This document shows positions 2,140 through 31,413 of a stretch of DNA of 32,000 nucleotides, in pieces; within the stretch, counting starts at the first letter, position 1, and each line of letters starts with the position of its first letter. The stretch is from Candidatus Lokiarchaeum ossiferum (GTDB lineage Archaea; Asgardarchaeota; Lokiarchaeia; Sigyniarchaeales; Promethearchaeaceae): positions 1,260,001 through 1,292,000 of the forward strand of contig CP104013.1 in assembly GCA_025839675.1 (NCBI GenBank), given 5' to 3'. The position numbers were made by a program, and so were the translations under genes. The notes under the pieces were generated by a model that was not told where the DNA came from, ran no database searches, and saw only the letters and a program-made list of their open reading frames with translations.

Positions 2140-5100
2140 TTAAATAGGTCTCTTTTTATTTCGATTTACAGTAATTATTACGAATACAGCACCGAAGAGA
2201 GTTAGAAGAACAAGCCCTGGACTTCCAAATGATATAGATGGGGACCTACGTCCAGTTGGTGAAGTACCATTTGAAGTATCATGTGCAGTATATGTCTCAT
2301 CTGGTTCATCATCCCAATCAAAATCAATATAGTAATCAACATAAACATGTTCAATATACACACAATTAGACATTGGACTCAATCCATTAGCATTTTCTGC
2401 AACTAGAACAAAATAATTCATTTCTCCTTCGTTAAGATAGAAATAGGTATTATTTGAAAATACAATATCAATAGGAGTTAAATTTTCAATCGTTATAATT
2501 TCTACAGAATCCCGATAAACATAATATGTATTTTCAGGATTATAATTCCAAGCAAGTTGAATATAATAATCAGTTGTGTTTTTCGGATCAAACTCATCAA
2601 GAATTGGGGCCAAAGGTAAAGAATTAAAGACTTCTACGCATACACAATTCGATAAATTGCTACTCCCAATTCCATTTTCAGCAATAATTGCATAATAATA
2701 AATTCCATCGAGTAAATCATAATCATAATAATTACTCCAAGGGCTACTGGTAATAGGAAGTAATCCATCAGTAGTATTGATTTCTTTTGAATCACGATAT
2801 ACCAAGTAAAAATCGCTATCTGGATCATCACCCCAATTTATAAGTACATCACCATCTCTATCGATGCATGGTAAAATTTCATCGACAATGGGAGCATCCG
2901 GAGCCGAAAGTAATACCGTCACATTTTGACATTGTGATAATGAACTATAGCCATTTCCATTTACTGCCACGACAACATAATAATAGATGCCATTTGGTAA
3001 ATTATAGTCATAATAATAGGTCGAATATGGAGACCTAGTTGCAATAGGAGCCATTCCTTCGATGGAAGTAATTAATGTATTTGATCGATAAACGTGATAT
3101 TCATCAGCTTCATCAATATAATTCCAATCCACTTTAACATCACCATCTTTATCGACAAGGGGATAAAATTCATGGAGATTAGGAGCTTCTGGAGGAACAT
3201 TGTGAACGATTACAGATTCACAATTTGAGATGGAACTATTTCCATTCTTATTTGCTGCGATGATCACATAATAATATGTACCATCGGGTAAATTTTCATC
3301 ATAATAATAGCTCGATGTTGTAGTAGCAATTGGAACCTTTCCAGTCACTGACGTGATAAATGAAATTGATCGAAATACATAATAATCTTGGGTATCACTA
3401 GCATAATCCCAATCTACTTCGACACGACCATCATGATCAGGGTTGGGATAAAATGAAGAAAGTCGTGGTGCCTCCGGAGGGGTATTTATTACTTGCACAC
3501 TTTCACAATTCGAAATTGAACTATTTCCATTGTGGTTGCAGGCCACAACAACATAATAATAGGTTCCATCAGGCAAATTATCATCATTAAAATATGTCGA
3601 TGAGGAGGATCTCTCTGCAATGGGGTCCATCCCTTCAACAGATGCTATAGTTGAGGTTGATCGAAAAATAAAGTATTCATCTGCTTCATCAACAGAATTC
3701 CAATCCACTTCAACATTACCATCATGATCAGGATTGGGATAAAATGAGTAAAGTCGTGGCGCCTCTGGAGGGGTATTTATTATTTGCACACTTTCACAAT
3801 TTGACATTGTACTATTTCCATTTTCATTTACAGCAATGACGACGTAGTGATATATACCGTCGGGTAAATTATTATCATAATAATAGGAATACGATGAAGA
3901 TCTAATTGCAATGGGGGTCATTCCTTCAATGGATGTGATTACTGAACTTGATCGAAAAACTAAAAATTCGTCAGCTTCATAATCACTACTCCAATCAACT
4001 TCCACAGAACCATCATTATCAGGATTTGGATTGAATTCATAGAGAATAGGTGCATTTGGAGGAACATGTGATACAGTTACTCCTTCACAATTTGACATTG
4101 TGCTATTTCCATTTTTATTTACTGCTACAACGACGTAGTAGTAAGTTCCATCGGGCAAATTATTATCATAATAATAGGAATAAGATGAGGATCTAATTGC
4201 TATTGGAGTCATTCCCTCAAAAGTGGTAATTATTGAGTTTGATCGAAAAATTAAATATTCTTCCACATCACTAACCCCGTTCCAATCGACTTCCACATCT
4301 CCATCTTTGTCCAATTGTGGATAAAACTCATAAAGAATAGGAGCATTGGGAGGAATATTTGTGACCGAAACGGCTTCACAATTCGAAATAGAACTATTTC
4401 CATTCGCATTGCTTGCCACGATAACATAATAATAGGTATCATCAAGTAAATTATTGTCATAATAATAACTGGATGTAGTAATAGCAACCGGCTCCATCCC
4501 GCTAATCGAAATGATTTCTGAAGTGGATCGATATATGTAATACTGTGCTGTATCGTATGAATTACCCCAATCAACTTCCACTTCTCCATCAAAATCGGGA
4601 TTGGGGGAAAAAGAATTTAGTTCTACAGGTTGGGGTGCGCAATTCTCGACAATGATCATTTCACAATTGGACATTGTGCTATTACCGTTATGATTCACCG
4701 CCACAACAACATAATAATAGGTACCATCAGATAAACTATAATCATGAAAAATGCTGGAACTGGTTGTAGAAACAGGGCTCATCCCCTCAATAGAAGTTAT
4801 ATTTGAAAATGATCGAAAAACAAGATATTTGTCAGCATTATTGATAGAATACCAATCAACGGTCACATCACCATCTCTATCAGGTGAATGACTAAATCCA
4901 AAGATGATTGGAGCTTCCGGTGGTTCATTTACAATGGAGACCAATTCGCAATTAGAGGGTATACTATTTCCGTTCCCATTTGCGGCCACAATAACATAAT
5001 AATAAGTTCCATCAGATAAATAATAATCATCGTAATAACTGGAGGTTGTTATTGCAATTGGATTCAACCCGATTAGGGATTCAATTGTTGAAGTTGAACG

Positions 5101-7618: not shown

Positions 7619-8257
7619 ATGACTAAAGTAAATAAATTCTGGGATAACCAAGCAAAAAATTATGACAAAAGTGAAGAACATTATGACCAAATTCACCTCA
7701 AGATTACTAAAAACACACTAAAATATCTCCATGAAGATAATATTGTATTAGATTATGGATGCGGGACTGGGACTAAAACTCTTCTTTTGGCCGATAAAGT
7801 CGAAAAAATACACGGAATTGATATCTCATTAAAAATGATTGAAAAAGCAAGAAGTAAAACCATTAAACATAAGATTATGAATGTGAGATTTGAACATTCT
7901 CCAATATTAAAAACGGATTTTGAAAATGAAAAATTTGATGTGATCTTAGCGTTCAATGTATTGCATGTTATTGACAATATTCATCAAGTTCTCCCAAGAA
8001 TCCATCAATTATTAAAACCTGGTGGGTTATTTATTTCGGCAACCCCTTGTTTAAAAGAAAAAATGCAATTTCTAAAAAAATTGCAATTGACTTTTTATTC
8101 CATTATGATTAAATTCGGCGTCGTTCCAAATTTTTTAACCAAATTTAAATTCTCAGATATAGAAAGACATATTTCTGATGAAAAATTCCATATTTTGGAT
8201 TCTGAACACCTATATTATAAGGTTTCGAACTATTTCATTGTCGCTAAGAAACTATAA
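7619..8257 (+). CDS. Class I SAM-dependent methyltransferase
   Basis: Motif I is VLDYGCGTGTKTLLLA. The acidic post-I residue is in HGIDIS. Motifs DVILAFNVLHVI and LKPGGLFI match the Methyltransf_11/25-type layout. Confidence 0.9.
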   Translation: MTKVNKFWDNQAKNYDKSEEHYDQIHLKITKNTLKYLHEDNIVLDYGCGTGTKTLLLADKVEKIHGIDISLKMIEKARSKTIKHKIMNVRFEHSPILKTDFENEKFDVILAFNVLHVIDNIHQVLPRIHQLLKPGGLFISATPCLKEKMQFLKKLQLTFYSIMIKFGVVPNFLTKFKFSDIERHISDEKFHILDSEHLYYKVSNYFIVAKKL

Positions 8258-13565: not shown

Positions 13566-15257
13566 ATGAATCCTTCTGATTTCTTCAATACTTCGAAAAC
13601 ATGGAAATCTTATCAGGAGAAAGAAATTGAGACTGCATTATTAGAAGTAAAAAAAGAGACTTCTACCCCCTTGATGAAATTGATTGAAGAATTTTTAATT
13701 TTGGATCAAACTATTTACAAAATGCAAAATTATACGCTCGCAAAAGAACTATCTTCAAAATTGTTGGCGAGAGTATCTGAAAAAGAAAATCCGATTCTAT
13801 TCGCACATACTCTCTTGGTAGATGGAGAAATTGAACGATTTACAGGCCAATTAGTTTCAGCAAAAGAAAAAATAGAAAAATCGAAAACCATTTTTGAAAA
13901 TCAGAGTGATTCGTACGAGTTTGGAACATTACTTGCGAATAGAAAACTTACAACAGTTTATTATAATCTGGGTGATTATAAAACAGCAAAAAAATATTGC
14001 AAAACAGGATTAAACTTAATTTCCAATAAGAAAAAGTATGTTATCATTTACCTCGAATTATTGAATAATCTGGCGATAATTTCTCAAGATCAAGGACACA
14101 TGCAAAAATCGTTGAAAATTTTGGATGAAGCATTCAATCTAGCGAATCAAGAACAAAAGTTTCGCATTGCAACAATATTGGCAAATAATTTGGCCGATCT
14201 TACAATAAAATTAGGAGAATACAAAAAAGCGAAGAAATATCTTGCTATTGGTATGGAAAATGCAAAAAAACGAGATTATAAAGAATCGATATGCTATTTA
14301 TATGAAAACTCAAGTATCCTATATTCCTATCAAGGAAAATTTAAAGAAGCGGAAAAATATTTTGATCTGGGAATAAGTCTCTCAAAAAAATATGCGAAAT
14401 TTTTACACCCCATGTTCTTATCGTCACAAGCTATGCATTATCGAAGGAAAGGAAATTATGCGGAAGCAATTAAAATATTTAGAAAATCAATCTCATCATA
14501 TTGTGAAAATAATATCGAAAACATGTATTATATCCAAACCCTTTGCAGTTTTGCAGATTTATTAGGAATAGTAAAAAAATATGAAGAGGCCTATGCAAAT
14601 TTAGCTAAGGCGAAATCTTTGGCTCGAAAAAAAGAAGCATTAGGAGATAAATTATTAATTGATTTAGTATTTGCAAGAATTCAATTGATAAAGGGAGATT
14701 TTATTAGTGCGAATTATTTGCTTGCTGATGTTATTGACCAATGTAATGAAGAAATTGACTATCACTTCATTGTGGAATGTAAATTATCTCAGGTGGAGGG
14801 TCATATTCTGCACTACCAAAATTCCCAAAAGGTAGGTTCAATCCAATCTGCGAAAGAAATTTTAGACGAAATCATTTTAATGGGGGAAAAAAAACATCTG
14901 CTCCCCGATTTAATTCACGCCAAATTCCTCCAAGCAGTTTTAATGGCAACTAATCCAGAAAATACAAAAAATGCTGTAAAAGAGTTAAAATCAACAATTT
15001 ATTCTGCAAAATCTAGTGGAATAACAAAGTATGAACGATTTGGAGAAATAATTGTAGAAGATCTTGAACGAAAAGAATATAATGACAGAGAACTCATGGA
15101 TCTATTTATGAATCACTTTAATTCTATGAGCTATCGAACAACATTATCTAATGAAGAAAAAAAATTCATCAATCAAATCGGTATGATTCTTATCTCACAA
15201 TCTGACTATGGTCCAGAAATATCTAAAAGCCATAATAGACCAGAAGAATTTAGATGA
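13566..15257 (+). CDS. Tetratricopeptide (TPR) repeat protein, 563 aa
   Basis: Recurrent 34-residue TPR signatures are present: YNLGDYKTAKKYCKTGLNL, LGEYKKAKKYLAIGMENA, QGKFKEAEKYFDLGISLS, KGNYAEAIKIFRKSI. There is no signal peptide. Confidence 0.9.
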   Translation: MNPSDFFNTSKTWKSYQEKEIETALLEVKKETSTPLMKLIEEFLILDQTIYKMQNYTLAKELSSKLLARVSEKENPILFAHTLLVDGEIERFTGQLVSAKEKIEKSKTIFENQSDSYEFGTLLANRKLTTVYYNLGDYKTAKKYCKTGLNLISNKKKYVIIYLELLNNLAIISQDQGHMQKSLKILDEAFNLANQEQKFRIATILANNLADLTIKLGEYKKAKKYLAIGMENAKKRDYKESICYLYENSSILYSYQGKFKEAEKYFDLGISLSKKYAKFLHPMFLSSQAMHYRRKGNYAEAIKIFRKSISSYCENNIENMYYIQTLCSFADLLGIVKKYEEAYANLAKAKSLARKKEALGDKLLIDLVFARIQLIKGDFISANYLLADVIDQCNEEIDYHFIVECKLSQVEGHILHYQNSQKVGSIQSAKEILDEIILMGEKKHLLPDLIHAKFLQAVLMATNPENTKNAVKELKSTIYSAKSSGITKYERFGEIIVEDLERKEYNDRELMDLFMNHFNSMSYRTTLSNEEKKFINQIGMILISQSDYGPEISKSHNRPEEFR

Positions 15258-21097: not shown

Positions 21098-24000
21098 ATG
21101 AATTTTAAAGCAAAAAAAATGGAAATCGCGGCATTGTTATTTATTCTAATTACAATCGTTCCAATAATTACAGTATCAGGGGCGCAAGAAATTCCTCCTG
21201 AAGACCCACCAGCACCAACGATATATACCGTCACTGGATATCTAAGATCTGATGGCTATGGGTTTATTCGAAATGAAAAATTGAATATTTATGCAGGATC
21301 TATCTCTTTAGGAGAAGCATATACAAATGATTTGGGATATTTTTCCATGTCATTCAATTCTTACATGACAATTAATGATATCATTGTTAAAGCAGATATT
21401 GCAGGATTTGATTATGCACAGTTAAGTGTTCACTCAACTGGAGTAAATTTTAATTTTGGCCAGTTCTATTTAAATTTACAAGAAGATAATACGTGCCCCA
21501 CAATTAATCATCCTAGCGATATTTCCTATGAAGCAGGTACTGTTGGAAACATAATCACTTGGATAGGAATAGATGATCATCCTGATCAATATACATTATA
21601 TAATTCTAATGGAGAAGTTGTGCAAATTGGAATGTGGTCTTCAAGTATTGGAATAACGATTAATTTCGATGGTCTAGTACCCGGTACCCATACATTTTAT
21701 ATCACTTTACAAGATCATCTTCCATATCAAAATGGATTGGCAAGGGATGAAGTAATTGTTAAAGTTTACGATGTTATGACTGTTTTTGGAGTGATTAAAA
21801 ATGATTGGGATTCGAATCCAATGTCAAATGTCAATGTTCAACTCCACGGCCAACTTGTTGGAGGAAGTACCGAGGAACTCATCGATTCATGCTCAACATC
21901 AGGAAGTGGAACATATTCGGTAGAGGCCCCAATAAATGGAGATTATTCATCATTTAAACTCACTTTATCAAAATTGGGTTTTTTCTCGTATACTGAAACA
22001 TATGGTCCCTATGTTGATGCTCATGACTTAAATGTAATGCTAATACCGGAAGATGACACAATACCTACTGTAACCAATAGGGGAAATATCAACATAATTG
22101 ATACAACAGGAATTCAACGACCGATGGTTCAATGGGATGTTTCTGATAATTTTCCTACATATTACAGAATCAGTCAAGGTGCAGATATTAGCAATTGGTA
22201 TTCATGGAATAATGGAGATTTAATTCAGGTGGATCTTAGCGATTATTCCCTTGGAGAATATAACTTTGAGATTACTCTTAAGGATTATGGCAATCATATT
22301 GTTACGGATACAGTAAATGTGAAATTACTAAAAGAATTTCGAATGGATGGTATTGTAATCTCGGATCATCGCGATATCCCTCTGAAATCTGCCAACATCC
22401 AAATTTTGGGAATGACGGATTATTGGAGGGAGATACACAGATTTGGTACAAATGATAGTGGACAGTTTGAGGAGTCTTTTGGTTATGATCCCAATATTAG
22501 CCAACTTCAAGCAAAAATAACATATCCAGGCCATAGTTCACGCACAATTTCATTGAATATGGCACAAAGTCATTTTTCAGGTGAAATTTCCCTAGATCCA
22601 AGTGATATTACAGTACCCACTTTAACTCGCACAGGGACAAATTCAGACACAACTCACTTTTACATTGAGGAATTTGGGGATGTGTCTTTTGGTTGGAAGG
22701 CAATTGATGATCATCCTTCAGGTTATGCTATTTTTATAAATAATGTATTCACTGAATCAGGAGATTGGAATTCTAATCAAGAATTTAACTTTGAGTTATC
22801 AAATTTGGCATTTGGTGAATATAGTTATACTTTAAGAGTTGATGATTATGGAAGCCATTATGTCTCTGATACTGTGTATATCCATGTTGGGAGAGAACTA
22901 TCCATTTCGGGAATTTTGTATGATGAGTGGATAAATTCCCCGAAGGATGGGAGTCTTATGTCACTTCAATATTACTCAGAAGGATCAGGATGGAAAAGCT
23001 TTACGAATGGTGATGCTCATGCTTTATCTGGTGAACAAAACACCCCAGGGTACTATTCATTTTCCGTTCAATATTACAGTCCAATGATACTTGCTCGAAT
23101 CTTTATTGCAGAATACGCAGGATATGCAGAATTAGCTCATGAATTCAATCTTGGCTCAATCCCTCCAACCAATCTTTACTTACAACGTGTTGAAGAAGAT
23201 AATGCCCCATGGGTAAATCATCCAGCCGATATGGTGATTTTTTACCAAGAAGAAGCTAACATCTCTTGGATGGCAAATGATGGACATCCTGTCGCAGCAT
23301 GGATTTCAGAAGATAATACTGATACCTTTCTTCGCCCCCGCTTTCATTGGCTCGGAGAAGATATTGACTTTTGTTTGAAGGTATTGGCTGTGGGATCCTA
23401 TAATATTACTCTACATCTCGAAGATTCTACAGATAATATAGTAACCGACACCGTCGAAGTTATAGTTAAGAGTAGAAAAACAATAGTGAAAAAGATCGAC
23501 TATTTTGAAGACGAAGAAATTACACCTGATTGGCAAACTCGAATTTCAACCCCTGGAATAGAACAAACCTTCAGTGAAGGGAATTACAACACCGGAAATT
23601 GGGGAACTCGAAATGTACTCCGAATGGATGAGGGAAATACCGGTACGGGACGAAGTCGTTATGATTATTATCAAGACTTAGGGGAATCCTTCTCGGGAGA
23701 TTTTGAATTATCCGCGATCATTGGATTGTATCAACCGTATTCGGGAGAAATGGCGTTTAACGGATTAACGATTTTAGATGAAAACTGGAATCCAATTGCT
23801 TACGGAGGAATGTATGACGCATGGTCAGGTAGTACTAAAAAAGATTGTGCGGGTATAAATGGACAAACTTATTCCACTGGATATATTTTCAATACCCCAA
23901 ATCGAGCGATCGGAGTTAAAATCCAACGAGTTGGTGATACATGGACAGTCTATCTTGATACGGATCAGGATTCTGATTTTACCGAATTCACTACCCCTCT

Positions 24001-24748
24001 GTTAACTGAAACCTGCACCACAACTGCCCGATATATTGGTTTTTACTTCTATCAATATAGCACATATAAAAATCCGAATTATTTCGCATGGACCGATGAT
24101 TTCAATTTCAAAGCCAGTCCTATCTCAAGTGATACATTTGACGATAGTAGCATTAATTCAGTGTGGGATACTCGAATCATCACTGTAGGGATGGAGCAAA
24201 CCTTTACCGAAGGCTCGGCTAATACAGGAACATGGGGTTCACGAGATATGTTACGTATGGATGAAGGCACTACTGGTACGGGAAGAAGTTATTATGCTGT
24301 CTTCCAAGATTTAGGGGATTCCTTCACCGCTGATTTCACAATGTCAGCAATTGTGGGAATGTATCAACCAACCTATGGAGAAATGGCTTTCATTCGTTTA
24401 GCCATCTGGGATGAAAACTGGAATGTGATTGCGGAAGGAGGATTGTATGATGCTTGGGCAGGAACGGCTAAAAAGGATTGTGCTTATTTAAATGGTCAAG
24501 CGTATTCAACAGGTTATAATTTCATGGCAAATCGAGCCCACGGTGTCAAGATCCAGCGTAGCGGCGATTCATGGTCAGTCTTCCTGGATACTGATCAAGA
24601 TAGCAACTTTGGCGAATTCTCGACCCCCATTTTAACCGATACATGTACTAGTGTTCCACGCTATGTGGGATTTGAATTCTTCCAATACAGCACGTATAAA
24701 CAAGCAGGCCAATATTGTTGGGCCGATGATTTTAGCTTTTCCCTATAA
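21098..24748 (+). CDS. Large secreted modular protein: 4 x (Ig-like module + carboxypeptidase-regulatory-like beta-sandwich) followed by 2 x ~211-aa jelly-roll (lectin/LamG-like) domains
   Basis: The signal peptide is MEIAALLFILITIVPIITVSGAQE. Four modules start at about 21484, 22049, 22601 and 23191 (D.T.PT...P.D......G......W...D.HP..Y.I). The C-terminal duplication is 23498-24120 versus 24131-24745 (F.D..I...W.TRI...G.EQTF.EG..NTG.WG.R..LRMDEG.TGTGRS.Y...QDLG.SF..DF..SAI.G.YQP..GEMAF..L.I.DENWN.IA.GG.YDAW.G..KKDCA..NGQ.YSTGY.F....RA.GVKIQR.GD.W.V.LDTDQDS.F.EF.TP.LT.TCT...RY.GF.F.QYSTYK). There is no C-terminal anchor. Confidence 0.92.
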   Translation: MNFKAKKMEIAALLFILITIVPIITVSGAQEIPPEDPPAPTIYTVTGYLRSDGYGFIRNEKLNIYAGSISLGEAYTNDLGYFSMSFNSYMTINDIIVKADIAGFDYAQLSVHSTGVNFNFGQFYLNLQEDNTCPTINHPSDISYEAGTVGNIITWIGIDDHPDQYTLYNSNGEVVQIGMWSSSIGITINFDGLVPGTHTFYITLQDHLPYQNGLARDEVIVKVYDVMTVFGVIKNDWDSNPMSNVNVQLHGQLVGGSTEELIDSCSTSGSGTYSVEAPINGDYSSFKLTLSKLGFFSYTETYGPYVDAHDLNVMLIPEDDTIPTVTNRGNINIIDTTGIQRPMVQWDVSDNFPTYYRISQGADISNWYSWNNGDLIQVDLSDYSLGEYNFEITLKDYGNHIVTDTVNVKLLKEFRMDGIVISDHRDIPLKSANIQILGMTDYWREIHRFGTNDSGQFEESFGYDPNISQLQAKITYPGHSSRTISLNMAQSHFSGEISLDPSDITVPTLTRTGTNSDTTHFYIEEFGDVSFGWKAIDDHPSGYAIFINNVFTESGDWNSNQEFNFELSNLAFGEYSYTLRVDDYGSHYVSDTVYIHVGRELSISGILYDEWINSPKDGSLMSLQYYSEGSGWKSFTNGDAHALSGEQNTPGYYSFSVQYYSPMILARIFIAEYAGYAELAHEFNLGSIPPTNLYLQRVEEDNAPWVNHPADMVIFYQEEANISWMANDGHPVAAWISEDNTDTFLRPRFHWLGEDIDFCLKVLAVGSYNITLHLEDSTDNIVTDTVEVIVKSRKTIVKKIDYFEDEEITPDWQTRISTPGIEQTFSEGNYNTGNWGTRNVLRMDEGNTGTGRSRYDYYQDLGESFSGDFELSAIIGLYQPYSGEMAFNGLTILDENWNPIAYGGMYDAWSGSTKKDCAGINGQTYSTGYIFNTPNRAIGVKIQRVGDTWTVYLDTDQDSDFTEFTTPLLTETCTTTARYIGFYFYQYSTYKNPNYFAWTDDFNFKASPISSDTFDDSSINSVWDTRIITVGMEQTFTEGSANTGTWGSRDMLRMDEGTTGTGRSYYAVFQDLGDSFTADFTMSAIVGMYQPTYGEMAFIRLAIWDENWNVIAEGGLYDAWAGTAKKDCAYLNGQAYSTGYNFMANRAHGVKIQRSGDSWSVFLDTDQDSNFGEFSTPILTDTCTSVPRYVGFEFFQYSTYKQAGQYCWADDFSFSL

Positions 24749-24756
24749 ATCTGACC

Positions 24757-24769
24757 TTTTTTTTTTTTT
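24757..24769 (+). terminator. T13 tract 9 nt after the stop of the 1216-aa gene
   Basis: The sequence is ctgacc followed by 13 T, immediately after TAA 24746-24748. Confidence 0.5.
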
Positions 24770-25287
24770 ACCAGATAGTTCCATCAAAATGAATTCTGAG
24801 TGATTTATAAGATCAGCAAAAATTTTACTCCACCCATAAATTTTATGAATGTGAAGGTTCTGGGATTATTTTTTAAAATAAATTAAAGAATACTAGAATC
24901 AGGATAATTTAACCCATATTATTATTGTGATTCATAAATTGGAAAACTTCTTGTCCTAAATTAGAAAAGATGCCAAAATCACTCAAATATTACAAAAAAA
25001 CGAGGATAGAAGCCTATTCTTTTGATTCTTAAATATCACGATGCCGCTCATTTCTTCCTTTCGTTTTCGATCTCAAATGATGGTTTAGTAATAATGTCGG
25101 AAATTTGCGGTTACAAATTCATTTAATCATAGTCCAGCATTTTAGCTAAATATAATTCATAACAATGAAACTAAATTTGAATTTAGGTCATCACTAATCG
25201 GTAATTTAAGACATTTCAACTTTTTTGCATAAACTATTAATTTATCACCAAATATTATTCTACTAATCATTAAAAAAGTCGAAAAAT

Positions 25288-27978
25288 ATGATAGGACTAT
25301 CTTGGAAAAAATGTGCATTGCACATACATACCCCTGCATCTCATGATGTCCCCAATGATTTATATACACCCGAAGAACTGATTGAAAAAGCCATTCAATG
25401 CAAAGTAGATGTGTTAGGAATAACTGATCATAATAATGTTAAATGGATAGATAAAGTTAGAAATGCAAACCAAAAAAATGGTTCACAACTGACCATATTT
25501 CCTGGAGTTGAACTTGATACTAAAGATGGTATTCATGTTTTAGTATATTTCGATCCAAATATAGAAATTTCAAAATTAACTGATTTCTTACATGAATTAG
25601 GAATACACGAACAACATTATCATGTTCCAACTCAAACAACTAGCGCAATTTTAAATAAATTCGAAGAATTTTACGAAAAAATTAAAGAATTCTCTGGATT
25701 TTTAATTTTTGCCCATATTAAAAGCAATCCTAAATCCCTTTTGATTCGAGCTGGTGGGACGGAATTTTCAAAGAATGAATTGAAGAATTATAATTGTCCC
25801 TTCGAAGTAAGAAAAGAAATAAAATCTGAAATAATGAATACACATCCTGGACGAGCGATAATAATAAAAACAGATTTTCATACACTTGAAGAATTTGATA
25901 ACGGAGACTACACTTGGATCAAATTTGGAAATGAAATCACCTTGGAAAGTCTTAAACAAATATCTTATGATCCATCACTTCGAATCGATTTTGAAGTACC
26001 TCAAATCAAACATCCATTTATCTCAAAATTAATATTACCAACGAGTTATTTTCATGATAATGAAATTGATTTCAATCCATTTTTGAATGTGATAATTGGA
26101 GGACGAGGAACAGGAAAATCAGTAATAATTGAATCCATAGACTTTGTATTCCAGAATTATTCAAATCCAGCCCTATTTAATGATAAACCACAATATTATG
26201 AGAAACTGAATAAAATCTTCATTGGAAACGAAAAAATTTCAATAGAGATAAATTATGATACTCAAAGCTATCGCTTGTCCCGAATATTTAAGAAATTTCC
26301 TCTTAATAAGAAATGGAAATCTGATCCAAAAAAGCTTCAAGATGATATTCAAGCTTATGATCATGCAAATATACAGATTTTAGAACAGTACATAGATGAT
26401 AGTTGGGAAGAAATCCAATTAGAACCAATTTTAACTGACTTATACCCACAACTATTTACTCAATCCTGTGTAAAGAAAATTGGAGATCAATCCGAAAAAT
26501 TATTATCATTTATTGAACAAAATACTCACTTAAGCACACGTTCGATTAAATATGAGAAAAATAAGATTGATTTCTGCAATTTATTAAAAAAAATAAGTGA
26601 TATTGAAGATTTGATTTTGGATCTTTATTCGAAATTATCTATTCCAGAAGAAATTGAGCATGATATTCAAAAAACTAAAAATGAAATAGAAGGACTTAAC
26701 GCCCGGGTGTCTAATATTGAGTTAAAGAATAAACAGAAATTGGATGTTAATCAAGAAAAAATTAAAAATTTTATTAAGAAAGTACCAGAAAAAAAATTTG
26801 ATAAATCACAACTAGAAGAAATTGAGATAGATTATGTGGGATGTGAGTTAATGAACCAGAACATAACAAACGATACAATCTCAATAAATTCCCACATCGA
26901 AACAATAAATACAGACATTAGCAATTTAAATAATTCAATTCTTTCATTTGTTCAAAATTTGGATCAAAACTGGGATTCTTTTTATAAAATAGAAAGGGAA
27001 AGGATACGTTCCACAGGAATTGATTGGAATTCTGACGAATCTCAATTAACTCAAAAAATGACTGATCTCGGGATTCTGCTAACAAAATATAGTGAAGAAA
27101 AAAATAAAAATGAAACAACTATTGCTAAAATAATGGAACAAGAGACACTGAGGGATGAATTGAAATGCACATTAAATGCAGTAAATAATAAAATAATAAG
27201 ATTTCAAAAAAGAATCGGGAGAAAAATAGATGGAATGATTCAAATTCCCAACACTTCATTTAAAATAATTGCTGAATCTGATAATGATTTAGTTTATGAT
27301 ATTTTAGATTCAATAATATTAACAAATGCTCATAATAAAGAAGAAAAAATTCAATCCATTTTAAATGAAATTGATCCTAAGGACCTTTTATTGTACATTA
27401 CATCAGGAAATACTTCAGTAGGAGAAAAATTAGCTGAATTAGGTCTTACAGAAAAAAATATTGAAAATTTCCAAAATAAATTTACATGTAATTTCAAGCA
27501 AATAACCAATATTAGAGGAATAAATCACAAAGAATTACTAGAATGGGATAGATTATTAAATCGATCCAAAGTTCAATTTACTCTCCAAAAAGAAGGACTA
27601 TACAAAGATATCTCTGATCTATCGCCAGGAGAAAAATGCGCTTTAGTTATGGCAATCATTTTAATTAAAAATTCAAGAGTGACTATTATCGATCAACCTG
27701 AGGATGAGTTGGATTATAAAACTCGAAAAGATTTGGTCAAGATGATTTCAGATAAGAAGATTACATCCCAAATTATCATTGTTACTCATTATCAGAACAT
27801 TCCTGTTCTTTCTGATGGCGATAATATTCTTTTACTTGAAGAGAGAGAACATAAATCTAATATTGTAAAACAAGGCTGTTTTGAGGACATGATCGATAAC
27901 ATTATTGACATGGAGGGCGGTCCTGATGCGATTAAAACCAGATTTGCAAAATATAAAGAAAACTTGCCTAAATATTGA
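25288..27978 (+). CDS. PHP-domain phosphoesterase fused to a Rad50/SbcC/OLD-style ABC ATPase with a ~500-aa helical insertion (Ppl-like architecture)
   Basis: PHP motifs appear in order: CALHIHTP (HxH), LGITDHNN (DH), FPGVELD (E), GIHVLVY (H), IFAHIKS (H), IIKTDFH (DxH). Walker A is GGRGTGKS (aa 271-278, nt 26098-26121). Aa 280-775 are Lys/Glu/Asn-rich and heptad-like. The ABC signature is LSPGEKCAL (aa 778), Walker B is VTIIDQPEDELD, and the H-loop is IIIVTHYQN. Confidence 0.92.
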   Translation: MIGLSWKKCALHIHTPASHDVPNDLYTPEELIEKAIQCKVDVLGITDHNNVKWIDKVRNANQKNGSQLTIFPGVELDTKDGIHVLVYFDPNIEISKLTDFLHELGIHEQHYHVPTQTTSAILNKFEEFYEKIKEFSGFLIFAHIKSNPKSLLIRAGGTEFSKNELKNYNCPFEVRKEIKSEIMNTHPGRAIIIKTDFHTLEEFDNGDYTWIKFGNEITLESLKQISYDPSLRIDFEVPQIKHPFISKLILPTSYFHDNEIDFNPFLNVIIGGRGTGKSVIIESIDFVFQNYSNPALFNDKPQYYEKLNKIFIGNEKISIEINYDTQSYRLSRIFKKFPLNKKWKSDPKKLQDDIQAYDHANIQILEQYIDDSWEEIQLEPILTDLYPQLFTQSCVKKIGDQSEKLLSFIEQNTHLSTRSIKYEKNKIDFCNLLKKISDIEDLILDLYSKLSIPEEIEHDIQKTKNEIEGLNARVSNIELKNKQKLDVNQEKIKNFIKKVPEKKFDKSQLEEIEIDYVGCELMNQNITNDTISINSHIETINTDISNLNNSILSFVQNLDQNWDSFYKIERERIRSTGIDWNSDESQLTQKMTDLGILLTKYSEEKNKNETTIAKIMEQETLRDELKCTLNAVNNKIIRFQKRIGRKIDGMIQIPNTSFKIIAESDNDLVYDILDSIILTNAHNKEEKIQSILNEIDPKDLLLYITSGNTSVGEKLAELGLTEKNIENFQNKFTCNFKQITNIRGINHKELLEWDRLLNRSKVQFTLQKEGLYKDISDLSPGEKCALVMAIILIKNSRVTIIDQPEDELDYKTRKDLVKMISDKKITSQIIIVTHYQNIPVLSDGDNILLLEEREHKSNIVKQGCFEDMIDNIIDMEGGPDAIKTRFAKYKENLPKY

Positions 27979-28166
27979 TTTCCTCCATTTTTCGATTATT
28001 GTAATAAGATGCATATTTTGCGAAGAATTTTAGAGAATTATTTCAATTAATTCAAAAAATAAATCGTCTTTAGTAAAAATTCTCAATTTTGTAGGGTCTC
28101 GCAAAAAAATACACTTTCTACCACTTTTTGAAGGTAAGGCCGCATTGAAGATATATGTCTACCATG

Positions 28167-28189
28167 AGAAAAAAATATATGAAAAAAAA
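28167..28189 (-). terminator. T-runs (minus strand) abutting the helicase-nuclease stop codon
   Basis: A8 at 28182-28189 on the plus strand lies directly below TAA (28190-28192). A further A7 lies at about 28167-28175. Confidence 0.4.
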
Positions 28190-30739
28190 TTATTTTACTA
28201 CTGAGAAAAATGAGTGAATCGTCCTTGTATTAATTTTTGATTGGTTGAGCTTAGTTTGTACAGATTCTAAGGAGATTTCACTAATATTAGCACATTTAAA
28301 AGCAGAATAGAACATTTTCGCATCCTTCTTAATTTGTTCCAGAATTATTTGATCTATAACATATTCGGTTTCTGCAGGATGTGCTTGAATTGTATAATTT
28401 TTTTTTGGATGTATATAAAGAGGGATAACTTCCTTATTTGAATAGATTTTTTTTGTCCATACAACAGAATTAGACATTTGACCAACTTGGCCTTTGTTTA
28501 TTCCCTGTGATGATATTATGACCTCATTCTTACATTCAATAGCGTAAATTTTATTATTGGGCAAAGCCCATAAATTATCAGGCCCATCCTTTAACTCTTT
28601 CTCAGGACGAAACGATGCAAAACCTAACATAGACCCTAATTTTTTTATTGCTTCTTCAAAAGCAGAAGCAGAAACACCAAAATTGAGATCAGCAAATAAA
28701 GCAGTAATATCAACCATCATATCGTTGAAAGAATCGTGAGTTCGTATAAATTGATGAATACCTACAGCTTGATCCCGAACTTCTAGTTTTATAATCCGGT
28801 TTTTCTTTGAAATAGGAGGAATCGACAAATAGGGATTTAATTCATGAGCAGTCTGTTGAATTAAGAAGGAATCTTCATTGCTTTCACTATACTTGTACGA
28901 AGCCATCTGTTCAAAATACCAACCTCGCTCTTCAGATGTTAAATTGGTATCCAGCAAAATCCGATCAATCAAATCATTACAAAGTGAAATATTATTATCC
29001 CTATAAGCAATATATGCATTCCTTTCGAGTTCAGCATCGTTAGCAACAGATTCTTCGAAGGGTTGAGGTTCAATCTCTTCCATTTTCTGTTGGTAATATT
29101 TTTTCCAGCTTTCATCTCTTTCAATAAACTGATTTATAAATCCTTCTAGATGCAGTAATAATTTTTCTTCTTCAGACTCAGCACTATTTATATTGGAAAT
29201 TATACTATTACCGATTTCTATTTGTTTTTTCACTTCATTAGATAAGAATGCTTGCTTTTTTCCTTCTAGAAAGAATCTTGATAGCTTTACTCCCAAAATA
29301 ATTACTAAACAATAATCATTTTTCCCTCTTATCCCCCTCCCAATTCCTTGTTCTATTCTTTGAGCAATATTTTTATACATCAATAAAGAATTTGGCAGAA
29401 TCATGTGTAAGAACTCATCATAAATAGTTTGATATTCAGGAATCAAATCTAATACTAAAACTCGGCATAAATTATCAGGTAAATCTATTCCATCGTATTG
29501 ATTTATTAATACATTGGGTTTTTTCAAATCATTTGCCTTAATTTTTTTTTTTATTTTGACAATTTGATTATGAATATCTCTAACAAATAATATTTCTGCA
29601 CCATTTTCCTCCCAAGATGATTTACTATTTCCAGAAGGAACTATTGAAAATATTCCAAAATCTCCTTTTGAATTTTTTGAGAAATCACAAATCCATTTGA
29701 CAAGTTTTGAACGATTTATTTCAGAATTGATTAAGCTTGGAATAATAATAGGTCGCTCTCCACTGTATTTGATCTCTTTGTAGGTTAATGGATTTAATAC
29801 TGCATCCTTATCAATTCCGAAGTCTTTAATTAAGAAAACATCATCAGTTAAAGTAGCCGAAAGATAAATTCTTTGATTAGCATTTTCAAATGAAGGAATC
29901 ATGTCAAGAGGCAAAATTCTCGGAGTTATTTCAATTCTGTGTCCTGAAATAAAGCAAAGACAATCCTTCAATGTAGTATTTATCAAATCCCAACTAAACT
30001 TGATATTATTCAAATTTAAATAATCGCTTAGTATTTCCCGAATTCTCATTACATGAGATTTCCAGGCCCAATACGGAACTTGCATTATTTTATTTGAATC
30101 ATGACTTATATCGAAGTATAAGCCATCATTTTGGGCGATTAAATCGCTTTCAAATAGTCGTAGTATTTTGTGGTAGATTGGTAGATATTCTTTTCTCTTT
30201 GGAATTTGAATAGAAAAAGATTTTCGAATGATTGCTAATGATTTGTGAGCATCATCCATAACAATAGCACCAATTTCCATTATTTCCTTTCTGGGATTAT
30301 TTTTTATGCCAAATAAGGACATTCCATTAAATAACTTATCAACAGATGTGATTAAAATTGATTTACTATTTATAAAATCCATTGGCAAAGGTTGTCCCTG
30401 AACTGCTTTGACTACAGAAATACCAAAATCTTGAGCTTGATCAAAAATTTGATCCACCAAATATTTATTTGGACATAGAAATAAACCGGGTTTATTCAGT
30501 TCATTCATTTTTGATTGAATAATTAATAAACCAACAAGTGTTTTACCATGACCAGTATGCAATTTTACAATAACATCATGATTTGACCGATTTTTTAAAT
30601 TCCACTCTTTTAATATTTCTCTCTGAGAATCTCTAATATATTCTTTTCCTTGAAAAGTATCTAAATTATTAAAAATTTGAATTGGATCTAAAGTTTTCTC
30701 AACTTTATTCTCTTTCAACATTTTTGTAAAATCAACCAT
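28190..30739 (-). CDS. SF2 helicase (DinG/XPD-type C-terminal lobe, no Fe-S cluster) fused to a C-terminal PD-(D/E)xK nuclease domain
   Basis: Motif I is KLHTGHGKTLVG (aa 59-70), Ia is LFLCPNKYL, II is IVMDDAHK (aa 159-166), and III is YLSATL. The Helicase_C_2-like stretch is QYDGIDLPDNLCRVLVLDLIP, and motif VI is QRIEQGIGRGIRGKNDYCLVIILG. Only one Cys lies between motifs I and II. The nuclease core is FEEAIKKLGSMLGFASFRPEKELKDGPDNLWALPNNKIYAIECK (D at aa 721, ExK at aa 735-737, nt 28529-28588). Confidence 0.92.
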   Translation of the reverse strand: MVDFTKMLKENKVEKTLDPIQIFNNLDTFQGKEYIRDSQREILKEWNLKNRSNHDVIVKLHTGHGKTLVGLLIIQSKMNELNKPGLFLCPNKYLVDQIFDQAQDFGISVVKAVQGQPLPMDFINSKSILITSVDKLFNGMSLFGIKNNPRKEIMEIGAIVMDDAHKSLAIIRKSFSIQIPKRKEYLPIYHKILRLFESDLIAQNDGLYFDISHDSNKIMQVPYWAWKSHVMRIREILSDYLNLNNIKFSWDLINTTLKDCLCFISGHRIEITPRILPLDMIPSFENANQRIYLSATLTDDVFLIKDFGIDKDAVLNPLTYKEIKYSGERPIIIPSLINSEINRSKLVKWICDFSKNSKGDFGIFSIVPSGNSKSSWEENGAEILFVRDIHNQIVKIKKKIKANDLKKPNVLINQYDGIDLPDNLCRVLVLDLIPEYQTIYDEFLHMILPNSLLMYKNIAQRIEQGIGRGIRGKNDYCLVIILGVKLSRFFLEGKKQAFLSNEVKKQIEIGNSIISNINSAESEEEKLLLHLEGFINQFIERDESWKKYYQQKMEEIEPQPFEESVANDAELERNAYIAYRDNNISLCNDLIDRILLDTNLTSEERGWYFEQMASYKYSESNEDSFLIQQTAHELNPYLSIPPISKKNRIIKLEVRDQAVGIHQFIRTHDSFNDMMVDITALFADLNFGVSASAFEEAIKKLGSMLGFASFRPEKELKDGPDNLWALPNNKIYAIECKNEVIISSQGINKGQVGQMSNSVVWTKKIYSNKEVIPLYIHPKKNYTIQAHPAETEYVIDQIILEQIKKDAKMFYSAFKCANISEISLESVQTKLNQSKINTRTIHSFFSVVK

Positions 30740-30790
30740 AAAATGAACTATTTATACTATTTCTTAAACTTATTGAAAATCAGCAATTAT

Positions 30791-30834
30791 TAAGATATTG
30801 TCATATTTTTTCTATTTTTGGTAATAATATCTTA
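30791..30834. promoter_or_regulatory. Inverted repeat in the helicase-nuclease upstream region
   Basis: taagatatt (30791-30799) and aatatctta (30826-30834) are perfect 9-bp inverted copies separated by 26 nt. They lie 52-95 nt upstream of ATG 30739. Confidence 0.25.
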
Positions 30835-31413
30835 GTTTTTTCTCAGCAGGATATCCCACCATTTCACAATTAAAAAGAAACGCGACGATTGAATAGATTT
30901 AAATTTTGCGTAATTATTATTAATTTTTAAATTATTTACATATTTCAATTCCCCATCGTTAAAGAGTTTGAAGTCTTGACCCACCAGAGAACCTCACTGT
31001 GAAAATGACATGACCATTGTACAATCCTGTCTCACTGGGTTGAATCCACAGTTAGCGGTAATCCAATCTACATGTTTGAGTATATTTAACATCCACGATT
31101 CTCTTTTCACTGTACATAATATCATGTCAATGTGTCTTTGTGGTTAAAAATCTTTAATTTACTCGGATTTGCAGGAAACCATGAAAAGACTTCGATAATG
31201 TTGTCTTCGCCAACATTTTCCTATCTTTTGGATACTGAAAGTGAAAAAAACCTGTTCATGGTGTTTAGTGAACTGACTTAATCTCTAAAGTATATTTAAA
31301 AAAAAAAAAATAAGATATTTGGGAAGAAAAAAGGATTGCAATACTTTCCCTACAATAAATATAATGGACAAGTCACAATTGATTCATTTAACGCTAATTT
31401 GGTTTTTTGCATT

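What the first reader, a model, noticed from the sequence alone, without database searches (positions are those of the whole stretch)
25288..27978. Single-chain analogue of SbcCD/Mre11-Rad50 in which a complete PHP domain replaces the Mre11 nuclease
All PHP metal-binding motifs are intact (HxH, DH, E, H, H, DxH) in aa 1-200. They are directly followed by a split ABC ATPase head. Walker A is at aa 271-278. The signature LSPGEK, Walker B DQPEDE and H-loop VTH are at aa 778-835. About 500 Lys/Glu/Asn-rich residues separate the two halves, the geometry of Rad50/SMC coiled-coil arms. I see no CxxC zinc hook in the arm, so dimerisation must work differently.
Basis: partly seen in the sequence, partly recalled or inferred. 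Interest (0 to 1): 0.7.

Follow-up and report, generated by a model that had tools for sequence, protein, structure and literature searches.

The report
Asgard member of Ppl/TrlF nuclease-ATPase family
This gene from the Asgard archaeon Lokiarchaeum ossiferum really does fuse a PHP-type nuclease to a Rad50/SMC-like ATPase with a coiled-coil arm, but the design already exists as the named TrlF/Ppl family of anti-virus proteins, so it is a divergent archaeal member and not a new invention.

Summary
ORF 25288..27978(+) encodes 896 aa with an intact PHP domain (aa 1-240), a split ABC head (Walker A 271-278; signature, Walker B and H-loop at 778-834), a helical hairpin (about 416-650) and no CxxC hook.

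The architecture is already catalogued:
- NCBIfam 'TrlF family AAA-like ATPase' matches end to end (323.6 bits, cut-off 350).
- E. coli anti-phage Ppl shares the layout and motifs.
- At least 575 loci in species-representative genomes, and many plasmids, carry relatives.

The window comes from Ca. Lokiarchaeum ossiferum. Its nearest relatives (32-42% identity) are Lokiarchaeota, Helarchaeota and Loki's Castle sediment sequences. None of these has the TrlG partner that follows the gene in 50 of 83 loci.

- Only about 235 of the roughly 500 intervening residues are coiled coil. The rest are the ABC N-lobe and an unassigned insert of about 100 aa.
- The catalytic Walker-B glutamate is a glutamine (DQPED) in 112 of 114 homologues and in Ppl. 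This fits nucleotide sensing better than Rad50-style ATP-driven cutting.

Most likely function is a standalone defence nuclease. It sits beside a PDC-S28 helicase candidate.

Verdict: new member of a known kind, with modest interest.

The parts
25288..27978 (+). Complete gene for an 896-aa PHP-ABC (TrlF/Ppl-superfamily) protein, stop codon included.
   Evidence: ORF. NCBIfam TrlF 323.6 bits over residues 3-890. 100% identical to the NCBI 'PHP domain-containing protein' of Ca. Lokiarchaeum ossiferum.
25288..26007 (+). PHP metallo-phosphoesterase (nuclease) domain, aa 1-240. Ligands are H12, H14, D20, H48, E75, H83, H143, D196 and H198.
   Evidence: Pfam PF02811 at 36 bits, above the 26.4 cut-off. 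Ligand conservation. AF2 pLDDT 93. Foldseek hits to RNase AM 7ug9, EndoQ 5zb8 and PolC 3f2c.
26008..26532 (+). N-terminal half of the ABC/SMC-type head, aa 241-415. Includes Walker A G271-S278 (nt 26098-26121) and Q-loop Q392.
   Evidence: AAA_23 and AAA_29 hits. G271, G274, G276 and K277 invariant; Q392 in 111 of 114. Mixed beta/alpha lobe in the AF2 model.
26533..26793 (+). Ascending coiled-coil strand, aa 416-502 (helices 420-449, 453-474, 477-502).
   Evidence: AF2 secondary structure. Heptad periodicity enriched over shuffles.
26794..26859 (+). Arm apex, aa 503-524. Low confidence, not conserved, one Cys (C519) and no CxxC hook.
   Evidence: pLDDT 58-64 in this block. No C..C anywhere in the protein.
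26860..27237 (+). Descending coiled-coil strand, aa 525-650 (helices 525-574, 584-650).
   Evidence: AF2 secondary structure. Heptad score up to 0.90, and 48% of windows exceed the 95th percentile of shuffles.
27238..27558 (+). Unassigned beta-strand plus helical insert, aa 651-757, between the arm and the C-terminal head half.
   Evidence: AF2 elements E656-664 and H666-754. No Pfam hit for residues 656-755.
27559..27975 (+). C-terminal half of the ABC head, aa 758-896. Contains signature LSPGEK 778-783 (nt 27619-27636), Walker B and D-loop VTIIDQPEDELD 798-809 (nt 27679-27714) with Q803 in the catalytic-Glu position, and H-loop VTH 832-834 (nt 27781-27789).
   Evidence: SMC_N, AAA_21 and ABC_tran hits. 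S779, G781, D802, D809 and H834 invariant; Q803 in 112 of 114. Alignment to ABC NBDs places Q803 opposite the catalytic Glu.
28190..30739 (-). Neighbouring, convergently transcribed 849-aa helicase that matches defence candidate PDC-S28. It is context, not a conserved partner.
   Evidence: PADLOC PDC-S28 at 1.2e-265 over the full length. DEAD, ResIII and Helicase_C_2 hits. No homologue in any of 89 related loci.

Best explanation
The gene encodes a standalone member of the TrlF/Ppl superfamily of defence proteins. It is one polypeptide in which an N-terminal PHP metal-dependent nuclease is fused to an SMC/Rad50-like ABC head that carries a short antiparallel coiled-coil arm.

Proposed mechanism, with the basis of each step:
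1. Two chains pair through nucleotide-sandwiched head engagement, with Walker A of one chain facing the signature motif of the other. This is inferred from the intact binding and dimerisation motifs.
2. The catalytic Walker-B glutamate is a glutamine in nearly every member, so bound NTP is probably held instead of being turned over quickly. The head would then report the cellular nucleotide level. This is inferred.
3. When a virus drains NTP pools and exposes DNA 3'-OH ends, the PHP site becomes free to degrade single-stranded DNA 3'->5', which halts the infection. This is extrapolated from secondary reports on E. coli Ppl, which shares 26-28% identity in the PHP and head regions.

In Lokiarchaeum the gene lies next to another single-gene defence candidate (PDC-S28). 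It belongs to an Asgard sub-branch that lacks the TrlG partner found in most bacterial loci.
For: Family placement:
- NCBIfam TrlF matches end to end, E=4e-96. Ppl_antiphage scores 143 bits and PADLOC Ppl gives 6e-28.
- E. coli Ppl aligns in both conserved regions and has the same motifs, including LLLDQPEDDLD.

Structure:
- The full-length AF2 model has pLDDT 88 and pTM 0.79, with a helical hairpin.
- The head and arm match SMC, JetC, Rad50 and RecN structures.
- The PHP model matches nuclease-type PHPs.

Active sites: all metal ligands and nucleotide-binding motifs are conserved.

Mobility and defence context:
- At least 575 loci are scattered across bacterial and archaeal phyla.
- Hundreds of plasmid copies are named TrlF or Ppl.
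- Neighbours include RM, BREX-like and HNH genes.
- PDC-S28 is adjacent in this window.

Standalone operation:
- TrlG-like genes follow in 50 of 83 loci, but at least 26 loci with ample flank lack one.
- All five Asgard-clade contexts lack an adjacent TrlG.
- No TrlG-like sequence exists in any frame of the window.

Ppl activity: it is summarised in PMC12904381 and PMC13434339. PMC13434339 and the Druantia preprint attribute it to Xu et al., Mol Cell 2026.
Against: - No experiment exists for this protein or for any archaeal member.
- It scores just below NCBIfam's TrlF cut-off (323.6 against 350) and far below Ppl's (143 against 1000).
- It departs from near-invariant family residues: R285D, R827S, N835Y, P798V and Q782E. 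Its regulation may therefore differ.
- The Ppl mechanism was read only through secondary citations, because the primary paper is not held.
- The nearest solved PHP relative is RNase AM, a 5'-3' exoribonuclease. Substrate and polarity are therefore not fixed by homology.
- Oligomeric state and PHP-head contacts could not be examined.
- The rest of the window is not a dense defence island.
Confidence: 0.6

Rival explanations
1. It is a housekeeping DNA-repair machine. In this reading it is a true single-chain functional equivalent of SbcCD/Mre11-Rad50 that uses ATP hydrolysis to process DNA ends or hairpins, with PHP standing in for Mre11.
For: The head and coiled coil resemble Rad50 and SMC structurally. 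E. coli Ppl's best PDB sequence matches are Rad50 N-halves. The PHP fold is related to proofreading and repair nucleases such as PolC, Pol III alpha and EndoQ.
Against: - Distribution is patchy, and many copies are plasmid- or prophage-borne.
- Neighbours are RM, BREX-like and HNH genes.
- The catalytic Walker-B Glu is Gln in 112 of 114 members.
- There is no zinc hook and the arm is short.
- Curated relatives are annotated, and in the case of Ppl reported, as anti-phage.
Confidence: 0.08
2. It is an orphaned half of a two-gene TrlF-TrlG system. It has lost its SLFN_AlbA_2/HATPase_c_4 partner and so is inactive or decaying.
For: A TrlG-like gene lies immediately downstream, often overlapping, in 50 of 83 loci. 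The founding trlRFG locus is an operon (PMC7554251). The window protein has lost several near-invariant residues: R285, R827 and N835.
Against: - The ORF is intact, with every catalytic and nucleotide-binding residue conserved.
- Whole clades lack TrlG, including all five Asgard-clade contexts and E. coli Ppl, which is described as a single-gene system.
- N835Y is shared by all four members of the Asgard sub-branch in alignment A1, and the other three carry T at position 285. This points to lineage-specific adaptation, not to decay.
Confidence: 0.1
3. It targets RNA. The PHP domain would act as an exoribonuclease like RNase AM, with the SMC-like head sensing or gating access to viral or host transcripts.
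For: The closest PHP relatives by both sequence and fold are RNase AM (7ug9, 9etk) and NCBIfam RNase RNM. A phage Ro60-like protein counteracts E. coli Ppl, which hints at RNA involvement (PMC11482910).
Against: Secondary reports describe Ppl as an ssDNA 3'-5' exonuclease that senses 3'-OH DNA overhangs. SMC/Rad50-type heads characteristically bind DNA (established knowledge). EndoQ and polymerase PHP domains, which are DNA nucleases, are nearly as close structurally, with TM-score 0.62-0.63.
Confidence: 0.12
4. It works as a two-gene module with the adjacent PDC-S28 helicase. The helicase would unwind DNA to feed single strands to the PHP exonuclease.
For: The two genes are 211 bp apart. Both have lower GC (0.29 and 0.30) than three of the four other long genes measured in the window (0.36-0.38). 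A helicase plus an ssDNA exonuclease would be functionally complementary.
Against: They are convergently transcribed. No PDC-S28 homologue occurs in any of 89 related loci. PADLOC lists PDC-S28 as a single-gene candidate, and the match is full length on its own.
Confidence: 0.07

Closest known systems
TrlF family AAA-like ATPase (NCBIfam NF045780), founded on TrlF of the Photorhabdus laumondii temperature-restriction locus trlR-trlF-trlG (PMC7554251)
   Same: The HMM matches end to end (residues 3-890 against profile 2-944 of 944; E=4e-96). Length, domain order (PHP, ABC-N, coiled coil, ABC-C) and all motifs agree, including DQPED. A Helarchaeota relative at 33% identity is named TrlF by NCBI.
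   Different: The score of 323.6 is just under the 350-bit cut-off, so NCBI calls this protein only 'PHP domain-containing protein'. There is no TrlG or TrlR partner here. The protein sits on a deep separate branch with other Asgard and sediment sequences and has lost near-invariant R285, R827 and N835.
Ppl, the single-gene anti-phage system of E. coli ('Gao_Ppl'; mechanism in Xu et al., Mol Cell 2026, 86:180, known here only through citations)
   Same: It is a single gene of about 890 aa with PHP followed by a split ABC head. Identity is 26% over the first 324 aa and 28% over the last 125 aa. The motifs are the same: HxH, DH, GVEL, AH, SDxH, GxGKS, SPGQK, DQPEDDLD, SH. Like this gene, it has no TrlG partner.
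   Different: The Ppl HMM gives only 143 bits against a cut-off of 1000. The coiled-coil middles are not alignable. One host is an enterobacterial plasmid and the other an Asgard chromosome.
SbcCD / Mre11-Rad50
   Same: Both have an ABC head split by an antiparallel coiled coil and paired with a metal-dependent phosphoesterase nuclease. The head is structurally similar to Rad50 and SMC heads.
   Different: - This protein is one chain, not two.
- The nuclease has a PHP fold, not the calcineurin-like Mre11 fold.
- There is no CxxC zinc hook.
- The arm is roughly one third as long.
- An extra insert of about 100 aa is present.
- Gln replaces the catalytic Walker-B Glu.
- In Ppl, NTPs are reported to inhibit the nuclease.
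ABC-ATPase plus nuclease defence systems: OLD/Gabija GajA, PARIS AriA-AriB, Septu PtuA-PtuB, Lamassu LmuB
   Same: The defence logic is the same, with an ABC/SMC-like ATPase controlling a nuclease. There are weak HMM hits to their ATPase parts, with E-values from 1e-9 to 4e-7.
   Different: Their nucleases are TOPRIM, HNH or Cap4 types, not PHP. Their Walker B is typically DEPE with the catalytic Glu present (own knowledge). The hits cover only the ATPase motifs.
Nuclease-type PHP domains: RNase AM (YciV/TrpH), EndoQ, PolC and Pol III alpha PHP
   Same: They share the fold and the metal-ligand set. Foldseek E-values run from 1e-9 to 1e-6 with TM-score 0.5-0.63, and RNase AM also matches by sequence.
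   Different: Those are stand-alone enzymes or polymerase-attached domains. None is fused to an SMC-like head.

Membership tests
PHP superfamily (Pfam PF02811) | HMM score above the gathering threshold | tested here: met
   36.0 bits against 26.4, residues 11-144.
PHP superfamily (Pfam PF02811) | Full set of metal-binding residues (HxH, D/H, H, E, H, H, DxH) | tested here: met
   H12, H14, D20, H48, E75, H83, H143, D196 and H198 are all present and conserved across 114 homologues.
PHP superfamily (Pfam PF02811) | PHP (distorted TIM-barrel) fold | tested here: met
   AF2 pLDDT 93. The top 32 Foldseek PDB hits are all PHP proteins.
TrlF family (NCBIfam NF045780) | Whole-protein HMM score at or above the curated cut-off (350 bits) | tested here: not met
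   323.6 bits, although the match is end to end with E=4e-96. It is a marginal miss.
TrlF family (NCBIfam NF045780) | Architecture of PHP, ABC N-half, coiled coil and ABC C-half in about 860-940 aa | tested here: met
TrlF family (NCBIfam NF045780) | Operon with TrlG (SLFN_AlbA_2 + HATPase_c_4) as in the founding locus | tested here: not met
   No TrlG-like sequence in any frame of the window. The partner is present in only 50 of 83 family loci, so it is not universal.
Ppl anti-phage protein (NCBIfam NF042955 / PADLOC Ppl) | HMM score at or above the curated cut-off (1000 bits) | tested here: not met
   143 bits. The best-scoring stretch of the PADLOC Ppl match (6e-28, 2 stretches) covers residues 1-310.
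Ppl anti-phage protein (NCBIfam NF042955 / PADLOC Ppl) | Single-gene PHP + ATPase with the DQPEDxLD Walker B | tested here: met
   compared.
Ppl anti-phage protein (NCBIfam NF042955 / PADLOC Ppl) | Protection against viruses; NTP-inhibited 3'-5' ssDNA exonuclease | not testable with these tools
   Needs biochemistry and infection assays. Known for E. coli Ppl only through PMC12904381 and PMC13434339.
SbcCD / Mre11-Rad50 | Rad50/SMC-type ABC head with an intramolecular antiparallel coiled coil | tested here: met
   Foldseek hits to Smc, Rad50, JetC and RecN heads with coiled coil, E-values 1e-11 to 1e-7. Helical hairpin 420-650. Heptad signal.
SbcCD / Mre11-Rad50 | CxxC zinc hook at the arm apex | tested here: not met
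   No C..C in the protein. The apex has a single Cys.
SbcCD / Mre11-Rad50 | Separate Mre11/SbcD calcineurin-like nuclease subunit | tested here: not met
   The nuclease is a fused PHP domain. No Mre11-like gene turned up in the Pfam scans of 12 ORFs across the window.
SbcCD / Mre11-Rad50 | Catalytic glutamate directly after the Walker-B aspartate | tested here: not met
   D802 is followed by Q803. Gln is found in 112 of 114 homologues and in E. coli Ppl. Alignment to ABC NBDs places Q803 opposite the Glu.
OLD / Gabija GajA | ABC ATPase fused to a TOPRIM nuclease | tested here: not met
   Only the ATPase motifs match (E=5e-8, residues 781-853). There is no TOPRIM hit.

The most novel reading that the evidence does not exclude
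The Lokiarchaeia/Helarchaeia sequences form a distinct, TrlG-independent archaeal branch of the TrlF/Ppl superfamily. Their SMC-like head is naturally 'EQ-locked' (Q803) and has lineage-specific changes at otherwise near-invariant positions (R285D/T, N835Y). In this reading the head acts purely as a nucleotide-level sensor and dimerisation switch that gates a PHP exonuclease. That would make it an Asgard antiviral effector, with a hook-less mode of arm pairing not yet seen in any solved SMC-like protein.
Probability: 0.25. Interest if true: 0.45.

Novelty: new member of a known kind. Interest (0 to 1): 0.27.

Why it matters
It shows that the Ppl/TrlF type of nuclease-ATPase defence protein reaches into Asgard archaea, the closest prokaryotic relatives of eukaryotes, as a standalone and divergent sub-branch.

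No member of the superfamily has a solved structure in the PDB copy searched here. The family-wide glutamine in the catalytic Walker-B position is a natural version of the 'EQ' mutation that experimenters use to trap ABC and SMC ATPases. A structural and enzymatic study of any member, including this one from a cultivable Asgard archaeon, would therefore show how an SMC-like head can serve as a nucleotide sensor instead of a motor.

As a discovery claim, however, the 'PHP replaces Mre11' architecture is already catalogued.

Tried and rejected
- The primary Ppl paper (Xu et al. 2026) is not held. Its content is taken from citing papers only.
- The first literature search for 'TrlF' returned only TRLFS spectroscopy papers. 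A whole-word search then found the Photorhabdus paper.
- Exact look-up of the NCBI protein P0001 found no contig on record.
- A search for a trlR-like small gene upstream found only ORFs of 20-50 aa with no support in 24749-25287.
- A search for TrlG anywhere in the window, using a profile HMM against all six frames with filters off, found nothing.
- A test of the PDC-S28 helicase as a conserved partner found no hit in 89 related loci.
- A MADS-like system (mad2 and mad3 hits) was considered and rejected. The genes are 17 kb apart and the hits cover only generic MTase and ABC domains.
- tRNA-linked integration was considered. There are no tRNA genes in the window.
- No dimer model was attempted. 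Only the monomer predictor is offered, and a dimer would exceed the 1200-aa length limit. Model coordinates are also not exposed, so PHP-head contacts and the exact arm geometry were not measured.
Full report
**1. The observation**

The ORF 25288..27978(+) is real and encodes 896 aa.

- PHP ligands: H12-x-H14, D47-H48, E75, H83, H143 and D196-x-H198.
- ABC motifs: Walker A G271-GRGTGKS-278, signature LSPGEK 778-783, Walker B and D-loop IIDQPEDELD 800-809, and H-loop VTH 832-834.

Pfam scores PHP at 36.0 bits (cut-off 26.4) and SMC_N at 40.3 (cut-off 40), with supporting AAA_21, AAA_23 and ABC_tran hits.

In an alignment of 114 homologues, H48, E75, H83, H143, D196, G271, G274, G276, K277, S779, G781, D802, D809 and H834 are invariant. 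H12, H14 and H198 are present in at least 102 of 114. There is no CxxC anywhere in the protein.

**2. What it is**

Curated libraries already hold this architecture.

- NCBIfam NF045780 'TrlF family AAA-like ATPase' matches residues 3-890 to profile positions 2-944 of 944, with E=4e-96. The score of 323.6 bits is just under the 350 cut-off.
- The related Spaf_1101 family (152 bits) and Ppl_antiphage (143 bits) follow.
- PADLOC's Ppl model gives 6e-28.

The window comes from Ca. Lokiarchaeum ossiferum. A protein 100% identical to it is on a 6.03-Mb contig and is named only 'PHP domain-containing protein'.

The family is large.

- 202 clusters at 50% identity score E<=1e-30 in an exhaustive search, nearly all 860-940 aa long.
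- At least 575 confirmed loci occur among species-representative genomes. They span many bacterial phyla plus Heimdallarchaeota, ANME-1 and a haloarchaeal plasmid.
- Hundreds of plasmid copies are annotated 'TrlF family AAA-like ATPase' or 'anti-phage protein Ppl'. A few phage records carry it too.

E. coli Ppl (891 aa) aligns to the window protein at 26% identity over the first 324 residues and 28% over the last 125. It carries the same motif set, including LLLDQPEDDLD.

TrlF was named from the temperature-restriction locus trlR-trlF-trlG of Photorhabdus laumondii (PMC7554251). Ppl is the single-gene system listed as 'Gao_Ppl'. From my own knowledge, that is Gao et al., Science 2020.

**3. 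Structure**

With the 114-sequence alignment, AlphaFold2 gives mean pLDDT 88 and pTM 0.79. The chain divides as follows.

| Residues | Element |
|---|---|
| 1-240 | PHP domain |
| 241-415 | ABC N-lobe |
| 420-502 | Ascending helices (two short breaks) |
| 503-524 | Apex, low confidence |
| 525-650 | Descending helices (one break) |
| 651-757 | Extra strand-plus-helices insert, no Pfam match |
| 758-896 | ABC C-lobe |

Heptad periodicity is enriched in 416-650. There, 40-48% of 28-residue windows exceed the 95th percentile of shuffles, against 1-2% in the PHP domain and the ABC N-lobe.

Foldseek against the PDB returns Smc head-with-coiled-coil (5xei, E=1e-11), JetC, condensin and cohesin heads, Rad50, MukB and RecN. 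There is no full-length match.

Neither the window protein nor E. coli Ppl has a sequence relative of the whole chain in the PDB. Ppl's best hits are Rad50 N-halves.

A separate model of residues 1-245 (pLDDT 93, pTM 0.91) matches only PHP proteins at the top of the list. These are RNase AM (7ug9, 9etk), uncharacterised PHP phosphoesterases, EndoQ (TM-score 0.62-0.63) and the PolC/Pol III alpha PHP domains. Histidinol phosphatases rank much lower.

Its architectural description stands, with one correction: only about 235 of the roughly 500 intervening residues are coiled coil. That gives an arm of roughly 90-125 residues per strand, about a third of a Rad50 arm.

**4.

The residue after the Walker-B aspartate is glutamine (Q803). 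Canonical ABC, Rad50 and SMC ATPases have the catalytic glutamate there.

- Q is found in 112 of 114 homologues and in E. coli Ppl.
- HMMER aligns iiDQPEDELD to laDEPTGTLD of OpuCA.
- HMMER also aligns it to llDQPTNHLD of the top PDB hit, PoxtA (7p7q). From my own knowledge, that entry is the engineered hydrolysis-deficient 'EQ2' variant.

The Q-loop (Q392), signature, D-loop and H-loop are all intact. Nucleotide binding and head engagement are therefore expected, while turnover is likely slow or unconventional. That last point is an inference.

This fits what secondary sources report for E. coli Ppl. They describe a 3'-5' ssDNA exonuclease kept off by NTPs bound to both the PHP and NTPase domains. 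It is released by phage-induced NTP depletion together with 3'-OH overhangs. The sources are PMC12904381, PMC13434339 and the Druantia preprint. The last two cite Xu et al., Mol Cell 2026;86:180. The primary paper is not held.

**5. Context and partners**

Across 83 loci with a family member, a protein of about 410 aa lies immediately downstream on the same strand in 50. Gaps are mostly -21 to +32 bp. It is SLFN_AlbA_2 + HATPase_c_4, the TrlG architecture (PMC7554251).

At least 26 loci with ample downstream sequence lack it. Other recurrent neighbours are methyltransferases, type I R-M subunits, DUF1156 proteins and SNF2-like helicases, which are typical defence-island contents.

The window has no TrlG-like sequence in any frame and no convincing upstream trlR-like ORF. 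Its downstream neighbour is convergent and 211 bp away. It is an 849-aa DEAD/ResIII helicase that matches the PADLOC single-gene candidate PDC-S28 over its full length (1.2e-265). That pairing is not conserved, because none of 89 related loci holds a PDC-S28 homologue.

The rest of the window encodes surface proteins, hydrolases and regulators, not defence genes.

**6. The Asgard sub-branch**

The nearest relatives share 32-42% identity with the window protein.

- A Loki's Castle sediment protein (LCGC14_0951260).
- A Ca. Lokiarchaeota MAG protein.
- A Ca. Helarchaeota MAG protein, which NCBI names TrlF.
- Several unnamed sediment metagenome proteins.

Where measured, their contigs are low in GC, at 27-28% (L001, L085/L086 and the short archaeal fragment L035).

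In a rough neighbour-joining tree, the window protein and its Loki's Castle relative form a deep separate branch. All five contexts examined for this sub-branch lack an adjacent TrlG. HNH genes lie nearby in two of them.

The window protein departs from near-invariant family residues (R285D, R827S, N835Y, P798V, Q782E). N835Y is shared by all four members of the sub-branch in alignment A1, and the other three carry T at position 285.

**7. Mechanism and rivals**

The best-supported reading (confidence about 0.6) is a standalone Ppl/TrlF-type defence nuclease. In this model an NTP-bound, slowly hydrolysing SMC-like head dimer restrains an N-terminal PHP exonuclease until infection lowers NTP levels and exposes DNA 3' ends.

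- Shown here: the domains, the conserved sites, the folds, the family distribution and the absence of a partner.
- Inferred: the oligomeric state, the substrate, the polarity, the nucleotide gating and the defence role in Lokiarchaeum.

Four rival readings were weighed.

- Housekeeping SbcCD-like repair machine (0.08). The patchy, mobile distribution, Q803, the missing hook and the short arm argue against it.
- Orphaned and inactive TrlF (0.10). Intact catalytic sites and whole standalone clades argue against it.
- RNA-directed nuclease (0.12). It is suggested by the closeness to RNase AM and by the Ro60-like anti-Ppl phage protein in PMC11482910, but the reports on Ppl contradict it.
- Functional pair with PDC-S28 (0.07). 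Convergent transcription and the lack of any co-occurrence argue against it.

**8. Novelty and verdict**

The design 'PHP nuclease fused to a Rad50/SMC-like head' is real and elegant, but it is already a curated, named and partly characterised family. This gene is a divergent member of that family, falling marginally below the TrlF cut-off, and it sits in an Asgard sub-branch. That makes it a new member of a known kind.

Residual interest lies in three things: the lack of any solved structure for the family, the natural EQ-type Walker B, and the availability of a cultured Asgard host.

Noticed in passing
window 25288-25320: The NCBI gene model for this protein (886 aa) starts 10 codons downstream of ATG 25288. 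Window residues G3, W6 and K8 match the family's conserved N-terminal G..W.K motif (G3 in 112 of 114 homologues), so the upstream ATG is the better start.
   Followed up: partly
window 28190-30739 (-): An 849-aa DEAD/ResIII + Helicase_C_2 protein matches PADLOC defence candidate PDC-S28 over its full length (E=1.2e-265). It is convergent with the PHP-ABC gene and 211 bp away. It is absent from all 89 related loci, so the two appear to be independent single-gene defence (candidate) genes sitting side by side.
   Followed up: partly
window 27679-27714 (aa 798-809): The Walker B reads DQPED, with Gln in the catalytic-Glu position, in 112 of 114 homologues and in E. coli Ppl. The best PDB sequence hit of this region is PoxtA (7p7q), which carries the same DQP and which, from my own knowledge, is the engineered EQ2 mutant.
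   Followed up: yes
window 27238-27558 (aa 651-757): An insert of about 100 aa (one strand plus several short helices) lies between the coiled coil and the C-terminal ABC half. It has no Pfam match and is only moderately conserved in the family. It might be a DNA-binding or PHP-docking element.
   Followed up: partly
window 21098-24748 (+): A 1216-aa secreted or surface protein has PKD-like and CarboxypepD_reg-like segments. It ends in two tandem copies of a module of about 200 aa (...TRISTPGIEQTFSEGNYNTGNWG... and ...TRIITVGMEQTFTEGSANTGTWG...) of unknown family.
   Followed up: no
window 25001-31000: The two defence-type genes have GC of 0.29-0.30. Three of the four other long genes measured in the window have 0.36-0.38, and the fourth (13566-15257) has 0.305. 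This is compatible with separate acquisition, but no tRNA gene is present in the window, and repeats and integrases were not looked for.
   Followed up: partly
window 7619-8257 (+) and 25288-27978 (+): A 212-aa SAM methyltransferase hits PADLOC mad2 (6.6e-24, partial), and the PHP-ABC protein hits mad3 (5.8e-15). They are 17 kb apart and the matches cover generic domains only, so this is probably not a MADS system.
   Followed up: partly
loci L004-L082 (related genomes): A TrlG-like gene (SLFN_AlbA_2 + HATPase_c_4, about 410 aa) directly follows the TrlF-like gene in 50 of 83 loci, often overlapping by a few bases. Standalone and partnered forms are interspersed in a rough tree, which implies repeated gain or loss of the partner.
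   Followed up: yes
window 2140-7038 (-): A 1632-aa protein carries multiple Ig-like domains (Big_13, Ig_J) and other weak Pfam matches such as CHU_C. It is presumably a large surface protein and is unrelated to the finding.
   Followed up: no
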